The notes beneath the pieces were generated by a model that saw nothing but the letters and a program-made list of their open reading frames with translations, was not told the DNA's origin and made no database searches. A stretch of 32,000 bases of DNA. It comes from an uncultured Opitutales bacterium (lineage in GTDB: Bacteria; Verrucomicrobiota; Verrucomicrobiia; Opitutales; UBA9783). Positions within the stretch are counted from its first letter, which is position 1. Every line of letters starts with the position of its first letter. The stretch is from contig CAKUSQ010000001.1 of the NCBI GenBank assembly GCA_934691225.1, forward strand, positions 420,001-452,000, given 5' to 3'. A program made the position numbers and the translations under genes. Shown here one piece after another: positions 7,114 through 7,464 of the stretch.

Positions 7114-7464
7114 TTATAGTTTAGGGTTAGGGCCGCACGTAGGGCAACCAGTGTTCTTCTTCATACCGTACATTGTATGGCAGTGTGGGCACACTACGAT
7201 AGGACCACACGTAGGGCAATCGATGTGCTTCTTACTACTGTAAATTATATTGCAGAGTGGGCATTCTACGATAGGACCGCACACAGAGCAATCAGTTTTT
7301 GTACGATCTGTATGGCGGCATACGATAGGACCGCACGTAGGGCAATCCGTCATACTGCCGTGAGGCCTGCCACAGCATGGGCAATCTACAGTTGCATTAA
7401 ACGGATCTGTGTCTGAAGCAAATGTGAAAGCACATGTTGCGGTTAATAATATAGATATTAACAT
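7114..7464 (-). CDS. secreted (signal-peptide-bearing) cysteine-rich repeat protein, 116 aa, five [DG]-C-[PS]-x-C-G-[PR] knuckles
   Basis: N-terminus MLISILLTATCAFTFA/SD looks like a Sec signal. The mature part has 16 Cys in about 100 aa, arranged as VDCPCCGRP, TDCPTCGPIVCRH, TDCSVCGPIVECPLC, IDCPTCGPIVVCPHC and TGCPTCGPNP. Differences between repeats are synonymous in this frame. It is the last gene before the terminator at 7071-7094. Confidence 0.7.
   Translation of the reverse strand: MLISILLTATCAFTFASDTDPFNATVDCPCCGRPHGSMTDCPTCGPIVCRHTDRTKTDCSVCGPIVECPLCNIIYSSKKHIDCPTCGPIVVCPHCHTMYGMKKNTGCPTCGPNPKL
7130..7386. repeat. intragenic dispersed direct repeats (about 26 nt: TACGATAGGACCGCACGTAGGGCAAT)
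   Basis: Copies at 7130-7147 (core only), 7195-7220, 7267-7292, 7321-7346 and a degenerate copy at 7364-7386. Copies 7195-7220 and 7321-7346 differ at 1 of 26 positions. Confidence 0.9.

What the first reader, a model, noticed from the sequence alone, without database searches (positions are those of the whole stretch)
7114..7464. Signal-peptide-bearing mini-protein built from five CPTCGP-type cysteine knuckles
After a Sec-type N-terminus (MLISILLTATCAFTFA/SD) the roughly 100-aa mature chain carries 16 cysteines. Five units carry the motif [DG]-C-[PS]-x-C-G-[PR]. Three of them are literally DCPTCGPIV or DCSVCGPIV and are followed by a second Cys pair or a Cys-x-His: CRH, ECPLC and VCPHC. C-P-x-C-G is the rubredoxin or zinc-ribbon knuckle, normally cytoplasmic, so a tandem array of such knuckles behind an export signal is unusual. 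One possibility is a periplasmic or secreted metal (Zn/Cu/Fe) binding or buffering protein. Another is a disulfide-crosslinked envelope component analogous to the small Cys-rich OmcA-type proteins of Chlamydiae; LLTATC is a poor but conceivable lipobox. A third is a redox-active peptide. I know of no described family with this repeat.
Basis: partly seen in the sequence, partly recalled or inferred. Interest (0 to 1): 0.7.

Follow-up and report, generated by a model that had tools for sequence, protein, structure and literature searches.

The report
Strain-variable exported cysteine-knuckle mini-protein
A small orphan gene in an uncultured gut bacterium with a small genome appears to encode an exported protein built from one to four tiny four-cysteine (zinc-ribbon-like) modules; it changes drastically between near-identical strains and is broken in some, so it is a real curiosity but not yet a proven functional protein.

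Summary
Window 7114-7464 (-) is a 116-codon ORF with a Sec-like N-terminus, 16 Cys in a 100-aa mature chain, and five [DG]C[PS]xCG[PR] knuckles. A better parse is four tandem Cys4 modules (CxxC-x7-11-CPxCG) joined by GPIV linkers.

It has no family. Pfam, NCBIfam, PDB, plasmids, phages and JGI metagenomes give nothing, and an exhaustive scan of 1.84 billion proteins finds only one 60-aa syntenic ortholog.

Strains with 96-97% identical flanks carry very different versions in the same slot, between NUDIX and the terminator/tRNA-Arg:
- four modules (window strain);
- one module with an ATG start;
- one module with no canonical start;
- a pseudogene with an in-frame stop and a frameshift;
- an 87-aa allele with the same signal peptide but an unrelated mature part of two classic zinc-ribbon spacings and native codon usage.

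dN/dS is about 1, against 0.03-0.2 for most neighbours. The window allele has atypical GC and codon usage, and gene callers skipped it. More distant relatives lack it.

Best reading (confidence about 0.45): a young, dispensable, fast-evolving gene for an exported metal- or disulfide-stabilised mini-protein. Main rival (about 0.3): a neutrally drifting relic. Metal binding, secretion and expression are untested.

The parts
7114..7464 (-). 116-codon ORF (stop codon at 7114-7116) encoding the cysteine-knuckle mini-protein
   Evidence: It is the best-scoring of the six frames by codon score (-0.08 against -0.32 to -1.14), but scores below all 28 trusted genes. It is identical in L001-L006.
7417..7464 (-). 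Signal-peptide-like N-terminus, MLISILLTATCAFTFA, with predicted SPase I cut TFA|SD
   Evidence: Mean Kyte-Doolittle hydropathy is 2.07. Residues S4-T8, T10-C11 and F13-S17 are invariant across all allele types. The window allele lacks the K-rich n-region (MKIKS) present in L007 and L018. SignalP was not available.
7321..7386 (-). Module 1, residues 27-48: DCPCCG-RPHGSMTD-CPTCGPIV (CxxC-x9-CxxC). This is the only module shared with the short alleles.
7267..7320 (-). Module 2, residues 49-66: C-R-H-TDRTKTD-CSVCGPIV (Cys-x-His + CxxC)
7195..7266 (-). Module 3, residues 67-90: ECPLC-NIIYSSKKHID-CPTCGPIV (CxxC-x11-CxxC). 72-nt repeat unit.
   Evidence: It is 56/72 nt identical to the register-shifted neighbouring unit.
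7117..7194 (-). Module 4, residues 91-116: VCPHC-HTMYGMKKNTG-CPTCGPNPKL. The C-terminal CGPNPKL is shared with the short alleles.
7069..7097 (.). 12-bp-stem hairpin terminator placed between the ORF stop and the tRNA-Arg 3' end. It closes the ABC-NUDIX-ORF transcription unit.
   Evidence: It is conserved in the L007, L011 and L018 alleles.
7473..7478 (-). A6 run in the 13-nt gap between the NUDIX stop (7478-7480) and the ORF ATG. The start region turns over between strains: a 13-nt indel, and ATG/ATA swaps.
   Evidence: That a +1 slip would fuse the TTG at 7481..7479 to the ORF is inference.
7478..9636 (-). Upstream cistrons of the same strand: MsbA-like ABC exporter (7894-9636) overlapping NUDIX hydrolase (7478-7897)
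   Evidence: The pair is conserved without the mini-ORF in a distant relative.
6977..7052 (+). tRNA-Arg(CCG), convergent with the ORF. It marks the other border of the variable slot.

Best explanation
The ORF is a young gene for a small Sec-exported cysteine-rich protein, restricted to one species complex of an uncultured gut bacterium (about 38% GC, contigs of about 0.85 Mb, probably related to Opitutales).

How it is probably expressed. It is the last cistron of an msbA-like/nudix transcription unit and ends at a strong hairpin terminator. Translation starts 13 nt after the nudix stop. Most genes in the window lack an obvious Shine-Dalgarno sequence, so its absence here is not informative.

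How it probably works. The hydrophobic N-terminus directs the chain through Sec and is cut after TFA. The 100-aa mature chain then folds into four consecutive minimal Cys4 modules, each made of a CxxC knuckle, a 7-11-residue hairpin and a CPxCG knuckle, linked by GPIV. Each module is held together either by one metal ion (Zn2+ is most likely; described reduced-genome gut Opitutales are fermentative and lack respiratory pathways) or by two disulfides.

How it evolves. Module number changes through in-frame recombination between the 27-nt knuckle-coding repeats. The signal peptide is kept while the mature part is shortened, expanded or replaced.

What this implies. The protein is dispensable and strain-specific. 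That fits an envelope or secreted factor facing outside pressure (host, phage, competitors) or a metal buffer, not a housekeeping role.

Shown versus inferred. Shown: the ORF, its repeat anatomy, its orphan status, the allele series, and the substitution and codon statistics. Inferred: transcription, translation, export, the cleavage site, metal or disulfide chemistry, and biological role.
For: - ORF and motif anatomy.
- CxxC pairs exceed what the Cys content predicts in the window allele (7 against 2.35, p 0.002). The same holds in the L018 allele, whose mature part is not recognisably related beyond the first knuckle (4 against 0.82, p 0.002).
- Allele series in the same slot with 96-97.7% identical flanks. 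The signal peptide is nearly invariant. C28, C31, C41 and C44 are kept in every allele with an uninterrupted reading frame, and C28 is lost in the pseudogene.
- The 198-nt difference between the 4-module and 1-module alleles is in frame.
- The L018 allele has an ATG start, an MKIKS n-region, CxxC-x15-CxxC and CxxC-x16-CxxC spacings, genome-typical GC (38%), GC3 (0.25) and TGT preference. A gene finder called it.
- Each intact allele keeps an in-frame ATG even though the start region is rearranged.
- The terminator lies directly after the stop codon.
- The sense frame scores best of the six.
- A missing Shine-Dalgarno sequence is normal here.
- Opitutales family UBA9783 from animal guts is described as having genomes under 1 Mb, fermentative metabolism and no respiratory chains (PMC12306168). 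This supports a non-oxidising envelope by inference only.
Against: - dN/dS is 0.8-1.4 against L007, L011 and L012. Neighbours give 0.03-0.2, and NUDIX 0.19-0.57. The internal repeats also show pN about equal to pS.
- The window mature part has GC 49.5%, GC3 0.465 and TGC:TGT 14:3. Its synonymous-codon score of -0.137 is below all 142 100-codon windows drawn from trusted genes.
- The gene finders behind all six matching assemblies skipped the ORF, and the exact protein is absent from a 15-billion-protein collection.
- The window allele has no basic n-region.
- L016/L017 are pseudogenes. L011-L015 and L020 lack a canonical start.
- The ORF is absent from relatives at 48-53% NUDIX identity.
- There are no homologues elsewhere.
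- AlphaFold2 gave pLDDT 47 and 52.
Confidence: 0.45

Rival explanations
1. The ORF is a relic or neutral sequence. An ancestral exported CxxC-protein gene, best preserved in the L018 allele, was partly replaced by a GC-richer repeat-prone segment. In the window lineage it is no longer under selection. The reading frame stays open only because a stop-free 72-nt unit was duplicated, and no functional protein is made.
For: - dN/dS is about 1, and the divergence of the shared part (12-15% against L007, L011 and L012) is comparable to neighbours' dS of 0.06-0.17.
- pN is about equal to pS between the internal repeats.
- Codon usage is atypical and sits outside the whole distribution of real genes.
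- Gene callers skip the ORF.
- The basic n-region is lost in the window allele. The start codon is lost in L011-L015 and L020. L016/L017 are outright pseudogenes.
- My rough estimate that a 116-codon ORF of this composition stays open over that much drift is about 0.16, which is not small. This is inference, not a computed result.
Against: - The window lineage gained a new in-frame ATG (ATA to ATG) after the ancestral start was lost, which looks like compensation.
- All four knuckle cysteines are kept in every allele with an uninterrupted reading frame.
- All four repeat spacings are in frame.
- CxxC enrichment is seen independently in two unrelated mature sequences.
- The 4-module allele is identical in six independent assemblies.
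Confidence: 0.3
2. It is a small cysteine-rich envelope lipoprotein. It would be acylated at Cys11 and cross-linked by disulfides into the outer envelope, like the chlamydial OmcA/CrpA protein.
For: - Cys11 is invariant in all alleles.
- The protein is small, Cys-rich, and comes from a PVC-type organism.
Against: - The sequence L-T-A-T-C or T-T-T-C fails the lipobox rule PS51257, which requires A, G or S at position -1, in all three alleles tested.
- The hydrophobic core continues past Cys11 (CAFTFA) and ends in a good SPase I site.
- There is no sequence similarity to any known protein.
- The organism is probably anaerobic and lacks a respiratory chain, which argues against Dsb-driven cross-linking. 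This is inference from PMC12306168.
Confidence: 0.08
3. It is a multi-core precursor of a ribosomally made, modified or bacteriocin-like peptide, with a conserved leader and a hypervariable Cys-rich core, exported by the adjacent ABC transporter.
For: - The pattern of conserved N-terminus, hypervariable Cys-rich C-terminal part and repeated cores resembles RiPP or bacteriocin precursors.
- An ABC exporter sits two genes upstream in the same operon.
Against: - The ABC protein is MsbA-like and has no N-terminal C39 peptidase domain. Bacteriocin-exporter profiles align only from about position 130-150 onward.
- The ABC-NUDIX pair exists without the ORF in a relative at 48% NUDIX identity.
- No modifying enzyme (radical SAM, MNIO, YcaO, LanM) lies in the window neighbourhood.
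- The leader is a hydrophobic Sec type, not a double-glycine type.
Confidence: 0.06
4. The repeats are non-coding DNA or RNA: a 3'-UTR element, a remnant of an insertion at the tRNA-Arg gene, or protein-binding repeats. The open frame would then be incidental.
For: - There is a local GC peak of 45-49% against 26-38% in the flanks.
- The segment lies directly next to a tRNA 3' end, which is a classic integration site.
- The segment is variable between strains.
Against: - No Rfam family hits the ORF.
- There are no inverted repeats apart from the terminator.
- The tRNA 3' end is not duplicated anywhere in the window.
- All repeat spacings are multiples of three.
- The antisense ORFs (79 and 83 aa) disappear in the short alleles, while the start region, frame and stop of the sense ORF are kept.
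Confidence: 0.06

Closest known systems
Minimal zinc ribbons and rubredoxin-type knuckles (Pfam zinc_ribbon_2/Zn_ribbon_3, DZR double zinc ribbon, DUF35_N; rubredoxin CxxCG...CPxCG)
   Same: Each module pairs two CxxC knuckles 9-16 residues apart, and the second knuckle is often CPxCG. A module is about 20-25 aa. The L018 allele has textbook CxxC-x15/16-CxxC spacing.
   Different: - Every Pfam hit is far below threshold: best E values are 0.21-0.28 for the window protein, 0.074 for DZR_2 on the L018 allele, and 1.9 for Zn_ribbon_3 on P0001.
- The known domains are cytoplasmic, or sit on the cytoplasmic side of membrane proteins. Here the modules lie behind an export signal.
- Metal binding is untested.
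Haloarchaeal small C(P)XCG zinc-finger proteins (e.g. Brz of Halobacterium salinarum, PMC2253796; small zinc-finger proteins of Haloferax volcanii, from my own knowledge)
   Same: They are very small proteins whose only recognisable feature is two to four CPxCG-type knuckles. They are often missed by annotation.
   Different: They are archaeal, cytoplasmic and regulatory, and have no signal peptide. There is no detectable sequence homology.
DnaJ cysteine-rich domain (four CxxCxGxG repeats binding two Zn)
   Same: Tandem CxxC-G repeats pair up into Cys4 zinc centres inside a short segment.
   Different: The glycine register differs (CxxCG-P against CxxCxGxG). DnaJ is cytoplasmic and the domain is embedded in a chaperone. 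There is no Pfam hit.
Chlamydial small cysteine-rich outer-membrane lipoprotein OmcA/CrpA
   Same: It is a small exported protein with more than 10% Cys from a PVC-group bacterium.
   Different: OmcA has a canonical lipobox and works through disulfide cross-links. Here the lipobox rule is not met and there is no sequence similarity.
Gene families with a conserved signal peptide and hypervariable mature region (Mycoplasma Vlp/Vsa variable surface lipoproteins; conotoxin and defensin superfamilies), from my own knowledge
   Same: The signal peptide is nearly invariant. The mature part changes by in-frame repeat expansion and contraction, or by wholesale replacement. The Cys scaffold is kept while inter-Cys residues vary. 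Presence and absence vary between strains.
   Different: This is a single locus, with no paralogous family detected. Positive selection is not demonstrated (dN/dS about 1 on about 50 codons). No phase-variation switch is shown.
Bufferins (Sec-signal-bearing Cys-containing RiPPs modified by MNIO enzymes), from my own knowledge
   Same: They are small, carry a Sec-type signal peptide, and use cysteines for periplasmic metal handling.
   Different: Bufferin precursors belong to DUF2282/BUF families and sit next to MNIO (DUF692) and DUF2063 genes. None of these is present here.

Membership tests
Zinc ribbon (Pfam zinc_ribbon_2/3, DZR, Zn_ribbon_15 and similar) | Significant match to a family profile (score at or above the gathering threshold) | tested here: not met
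   Best hits: Zn_ribbon_15 at 12.5 bits against a cut-off of 28.9; for the L018 allele, DZR_2 at 13.3 against 27; for P0001, Zn_ribbon_3 at 8.5 against 27.
Zinc ribbon (Pfam zinc_ribbon_2/3, DZR, Zn_ribbon_15 and similar) | Two CxxC (or CxxH) knuckles separated by a short beta-hairpin, giving four ligands per module | tested here: met
   All 16 mature Cys plus H51 fall into four such units with one Cys to spare. The short alleles have exactly one unit and L018 has two. This is a pattern-level test only.
Zinc ribbon (Pfam zinc_ribbon_2/3, DZR, Zn_ribbon_15 and similar) | Zinc-ribbon fold and bound Zn | tested here: inconclusive
   AlphaFold2 single-sequence models gave pLDDT 47.0 and 51.7. That is too low for a fold search. 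Metal content cannot be tested in silico.
Sec (SPase I) signal peptide | Basic n-region, hydrophobic h-region of 7-15 residues, small residues at positions -3 and -1 | tested here: inconclusive
   The h-region has mean hydropathy of about 2.0, and the T-F-A|S site fits the -3/-1 rule. A basic n-region is present in L007 and L018 (MKIKS) but absent in the window allele. SignalP was not available.
Bacterial lipoprotein (SPase II; chlamydial OmcA-type) | Lipobox [LVI][ASTVI][GAS]C / PROSITE PS51257 | tested here: not met
   The regular expression for PS51257 fails for the window, L007 and L018 N-termini, which have Thr at position -1.
RiPP or bacteriocin precursor with a dedicated exporter | Neighbouring maturase or a C39-peptidase ABC exporter, and co-occurrence of precursor and exporter | tested here: not met
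   The ABC protein is MsbA-like and has no peptidase domain. The ABC-NUDIX pair occurs without the ORF in L024-L026. No maturase lies nearby.
c-type cytochrome | Conserved CxxCH haem-binding motifs in a Sec-exported protein | tested here: not met
   Only one of seven CxxC is followed by His (CPHCH, residues 92-96). L007 has one (CPSCH). L011, L012 and L018 have none.
Rubredoxin | Pfam Rubredoxin match; CxxCG...CPxCG about 29 residues apart with an aromatic core | tested here: not met
   There is no Pfam hit. A rubredoxin-repeat protein (P0005) appears only as a marginal motif-level hit (E 7e-4) in the exhaustive scan.

The most novel reading that the evidence does not exclude
Bacteria of this lineage export strings of minimal Cys4 zinc-ribbon modules. 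The locus behaves like a toxin or defensin gene. The signal peptide is fixed. The cysteine scaffold is fixed. The residues between the cysteines, and the module number (1, 2 or 4), diversify between strains, and whole mature cassettes are swapped. That would make it a strain-specific extracellular recognition, decoy or metal-capture factor. It would also be the first example of zinc-ribbon-type modules used outside the cytoplasm with this mode of evolution.
Probability: 0.2. Interest if true: 0.65.

Novelty: new variant of a known kind. Interest (0 to 1): 0.42.

Why it matters
If the protein is made and exported, it would put the most common cytoplasmic metal-binding knuckle (CPxCG/CxxC) into the cell envelope of an anaerobic gut bacterium with a small genome. 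It would also be a compact natural example of modular, copy-number-variable mini-domains.

The locus is also a clean case study of how an orphan gene turns over. Within about 3-4% genome divergence, the series of alleles shows expansion, contraction, cassette replacement, start-codon loss and re-creation, and pseudogenisation.

Finally, it shows that standard gene callers miss such genes. The 116-aa ORF was left uncalled in all six matching assemblies examined.

Tried and rejected
- Family searches found nothing at or near threshold: Pfam, NCBIfam and PADLOC.
- The word-indexed search of 5.8 billion proteins gave no hit for the window protein, and only itself for the L018 allele.
- The exhaustive phmmer scan of 1.84 billion representatives gave one true ortholog, P0001. 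Four other hits (P0002-P0005) are motif or low-complexity coincidences: an animal thrombospondin-type CPTCGP repeat protein, rubredoxin repeats and the like.
- PDB sequence search gave nothing.
- tblastn against plasmids and phages gave no match.
- A degenerate DCPTCGPIV DNA pattern in viral contigs gave 0 hits.
- JGI metagenomes gave nothing, either with the signal-peptide DNA (0 hits) or with a protein-guided scan (90 pattern hits, none confirmed).
- The GTDB genome scan with CdsA found only a relative at 63% identity with different synteny.
- AlphaFold2 was run on two alleles. Confidence was too low, so no fold search was run.
- A CRISPR-like or other non-coding repeat array was rejected. 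The spacing is irregular (72, 72, 54, 39), the repeats are short (17-27 nt) and all in one frame, and there is no Rfam hit.
- Haem c binding and the lipobox were tested and not met.
- A tRNA-linked island with att duplication was not found.
- Positive selection could not be claimed. With about 50 shared codons, the 14-18 non-synonymous and 4-5 synonymous differences fit neutrality.
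Full report
**1. The observation**

Window 7114-7464 on the minus strand is an ATG-initiated ORF of 116 codons. Its product is:

MLISILLTATCAFTFASDTDPFNATVDCPCCGRPHGSMTDCPTCGPIVCRHTDRTKTDCSVCGPIVECPLCNIIYSSKKHIDCPTCGPIVVCPHCHTMYGMKKNTGCPTCGPNPKL

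- It has 17 Cys, 16 of them after the predicted TFA|SD cleavage site.
- It has five [DG]C[PS]xCG[PR] motifs, at residues 27, 40, 58, 82 and 106, and seven CxxC pairs.

The pattern is not a by-product of Cys richness. Shuffling the mature chain gives 2.35 CxxC on average against 7 observed (p about 0.002). No other ORF in the window reaches three CxxC.

At the DNA level there are four or five copies of a 17-27-nt repeat. Their spacing is 72, 72, 54 and 39 nt, all multiples of three.

**2. Anatomy and a better parse**

The shortest allele found in relatives contains exactly one CxxC-x9-CPxCG pair. Using that as the unit, the window protein resolves into four Cys4-type modules joined by GPIV linkers:

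| Module | Ligands | Spacer |
|---|---|---|
| 1 | C28/C31 + C41/C44 | x9 |
| 2 | C49/H51 + C59/C62 | x7 |
| 3 | C68/C71 + C83/C86 | x11 |
| 4 | C92/C95 + C107/C110 | x11 |

C30 is left spare. The module borders coincide with the DNA repeat starts at 7195, 7267 and 7321.

**3. Genomic context**

- The ORF starts 13 nt after the stop of a NUDIX hydrolase gene (7478-7897). That gene overlaps an MsbA-like ABC exporter gene (7894-9636).
- Seventeen nt after the ORF stop there is a perfect 12-bp-stem hairpin (7069-7097). It also faces the convergent tRNA-Arg(CCG) at 6977-7052.
- The ORF is therefore the last cistron of a three-gene unit. This is inference from layout.
- Most genes in the window, including tuf, rpoB and rpoC, lack a Shine-Dalgarno sequence. 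Its absence here says nothing.

**4. Homology**

- Pfam, NCBIfam and PADLOC give nothing near threshold.
- The PDB gives nothing.
- A word-indexed search of 5.8 billion proteins gives nothing.
- An exhaustive phmmer scan of 1.84 billion cluster representatives gives one real relative, P0001. It is 60 aa, E 1.6e-14, and 78% identical over residues 2-46. The four other hits are motif coincidences.
- Plasmids, phages, viral contigs and JGI metagenomes give nothing.
- The exact protein is not in a collection of 153 billion gene calls. The gene finders skipped the ORF in all six assemblies examined that carry this exact DNA.

**5. The allele series (the main new result)**

I used the neighbouring NUDIX and CdsA proteins as handles to retrieve the same slot, NUDIX > [ORF] > terminator > tRNA-Arg < CdsA, from 15 further metagenome or MAG contigs, two of which end before the ORF can be read in full.

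The flanking genes are 96-97.7% identical to the window (NUDIX 94-96.6%). The shared part of the ORF is only 77-88% identical. The ABC+NUDIX distance matrix gives four lineages about 3-4% apart.

| Lineage | Loci | State of the ORF |
|---|---|---|
| W | window, L001-L006 | 116 aa, four modules |
| S | L007/L008 | 60-aa P0001 with ATG starts and an MKIKS n-region, one module. It differs from W by a 198-nt in-frame gap. |
| S | L011, L012-L015, L020 | Same one-module frame, open to the same stop, but no ATG/GTG/TTG start |
| P | L016/L017 | Window-like sequence with an in-frame TAG, C28 changed to Tyr, and a frameshift: a pseudogene |
| Z | L018 | 87-aa protein P0014 |

The Z allele reads MKIKSILTSILLTTTCAFTFASDPFDPAICQYCG..., then a mature part not recognisably related to W. 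Its four CxxC are spaced x15 and x16, the classic zinc-ribbon spacings. A gene finder called it.

Across all allele types the signal-peptide residues are almost invariant. The first-knuckle cysteines C28 and C31 are invariant, and C41 and C44 are also kept in every W- and S-type allele with an open frame. The residues in and next to that knuckle differ in every lineage: DCPCCG, NCPSCH, HCTLCN, ICQYCG.

**6. More distant relatives**

- At 48% NUDIX identity (L024-L026) the ABC-NUDIX pair is conserved. It is followed directly by convergent gatB.
- At 53% (L022/L023) NUDIX is followed by tgt.
- The nearest GTDB representative (CdsA 63%, labelled an 'uncultured Opitutales' MAG) has other neighbours.
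- None of these carries a CxxC-rich small ORF in the DNA retrieved.

The ORF is therefore confined to one species complex. Its proximity to the ABC exporter is not a conserved functional linkage.

**7. Selection and composition**

Nei-Gojobori estimates against L007, L011 and L012:

| | dN | dS | dN/dS |
|---|---|---|---|
| Mini-ORF | 0.13-0.17 | 0.125-0.16 | 0.8-1.4 |
| ABC, CdsA, UppS | | 0.06-0.17 | 0.03-0.18 |
| NUDIX | | | 0.19-0.57 |

- Internal repeat units are 56/72 nt identical with pN about equal to pS. With only about 50 comparable codons, these numbers fit neutrality and cannot show positive selection.
- The sense frame has the best codon score of the six (-0.08) but falls below all 28 trusted genes (0.07-0.60).
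- The window mature part has 49.5% GC, GC3 0.465, and TGC:TGT 14:3, against 38:89 in the genome. Its synonymous-codon score of -0.137 is below every one of 142 100-codon windows taken from real genes.
- By contrast, the L018 allele has native composition: GC 38%, GC3 0.25, TGT:TGC 7:2, codon score 0.10.

**8. Weighing the evidence**

For a real exported protein:
- The signal peptide is conserved. Its polarity is correct by the positive-inside rule, with basic residues before the hydrophobic core and acidic residues after it.
- All repeat changes are in frame.
- The cysteine scaffold is kept in every allele with an uninterrupted frame, and C28 is lost in the pseudogene.
- CxxC enrichment is seen independently in two unrelated mature sequences.
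- An in-frame ATG was re-created in the window lineage after the ancestral start was lost.
- A terminator sits right behind the stop.
- One allele looks like a perfectly ordinary gene.

Against:
- dN/dS is about 1.
- Composition is atypical.
- No gene call was made.
- The window allele lacks a basic n-region.
- The start codon is lost in one sub-clade, and one lineage is a pseudogene.
- The ORF is absent from other genera, and no homologues exist.

I put the functional-gene reading at about 0.45 and the drifting-relic reading at about 0.3. The remainder is split among the lipoprotein, RiPP-precursor and non-coding readings.

**9. Mechanism proposed (inferred)**

- The gene is co-transcribed with msbA-like and nudix.
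- The product is exported by Sec and cleaved after TFA.
- The 100-aa chain folds into four bead-like modules. Each is pinned by four ligands around a metal ion, or by two disulfides.
- Metal is somewhat more likely. The only described gut Opitutales with genomes under 1 Mb (family UBA9783) are fermentative and lack respiratory chains (PMC12306168). That argues against a quinone-driven DsbA/DsbB system. Whether the window organism belongs to that family was not tested.
- The extreme strain-to-strain variability and dispensability point to an accessory role at the cell surface or outside the cell, not a housekeeping role.

**10. Comparison with known systems**

- By pattern, the modules resemble minimal zinc ribbons and rubredoxin knuckles, the haloarchaeal C(P)XCG mini-proteins (PMC2253796) and the DnaJ Cys-rich domain. 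All of those are cytoplasmic, and no profile match reaches threshold, so membership is not claimed.
- The OmcA analogy fails the lipobox test.
- The cytochrome c idea fails because CxxCH is present once and is not conserved.
- The RiPP idea fails on neighbourhood and exporter type.
- In its mode of evolution, the locus most resembles families with a conserved signal peptide and a hypervariable, repeat-bearing mature part, such as Mycoplasma variable surface lipoproteins and conotoxin or defensin genes. That comparison is an analogy from my own knowledge, not a test.

**11. Verdict**

- The ORF is an orphan confined to one species complex, with a striking allele series.
- Functionality of the window allele is uncertain.
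- Novelty: a new variant of a known kind, namely CxxC-knuckle mini-proteins placed behind an export signal and evolving in a modular, cassette-like way.
- Interest: 0.42.

Noticed in passing
window 2943-3374 (-), with 862-2628 (+) and the 55-aa ORF seen in L001 12977-13144: A 143-aa type III secretion chaperone-like gene is present (Pfam CesT; NCBIfam SicP E 3.5e-16, below cut-off). Next to it are a 55-aa ORF and a 586/588-aa protein with no family hit. This may be a chaperone/effector pair in a reduced-genome gut bacterium. A CesT gene also occurs in the distant relative L022.
   Followed up: partly
whole window; L001 (ERZ4561804 NODE_1, 842 kb contig): The organism is uncultured, has 38.5% GC, and yields contigs up to 842-848 kb in Hadza and other metagenomes. 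No GTDB species representative matched it; the best CdsA hit is 63% identical, a MAG labelled uncultured Opitutales. It is probably one of the gut Opitutales-like lineages with genomes under 1 Mb described in PMC12306168. Taxonomy was not verified.
   Followed up: partly
window 7473-7481: A T6 run (A6 on the minus strand) lies between a TTG that overlaps the NUDIX stop codon and the ORF ATG. A +1 slip would give TTG-AAA-AAA-ATT-AAA-TCA-ATG, that is MKKIKSM..., restoring the basic n-region seen in other alleles. In L007 and L018 a 13-nt insertion supplies upstream ATG codons instead; in L007 it also lengthens NUDIX to 146 aa.
   Followed up: partly
L019 (ends at the tRNA-Arg) and L021 (ends inside module 4): Two metagenome contigs stop at or inside the repeat-bearing ORF. 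This suggests the repeats, or strain mixtures at this slot, break short-read assemblies and hide further alleles.
   Followed up: no
window 6897-6976 (spacer between CdsA and tRNA-Arg) and homologous parts of L007, L012, L013: The short spacer is mosaic between strains. It has a 7-nt indel (TTAAAAT) and clustered substitutions. L012 and L013 differ here (94.0% against 88.9% identity to the window) although their ABC+NUDIX genes are 99.95% identical. That points to local recombination around the variable slot.
   Followed up: no
window 9826-10146 (+) and 10553-11257 (+): Two conserved ORFs (106 aa and 234 aa), on either side of secG (10196-10549) and upstream of tRNA-Thr/tuf, have no Pfam or NCBIfam hit. 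Both are present in all related loci.
   Followed up: no
window 7117-7416 against L018 2398-2592: The window and short-type mature region is GC-rich and uses TGC for Cys. The L018 cassette in the same slot has native composition. The first-knuckle variants of the short alleles (CTLCN, CPSCH) resemble the knuckles of window modules 3 and 4 (CPLCN, CPHCH). This hints at gene conversion between modules or a multi-module ancestor.
   Followed up: partly
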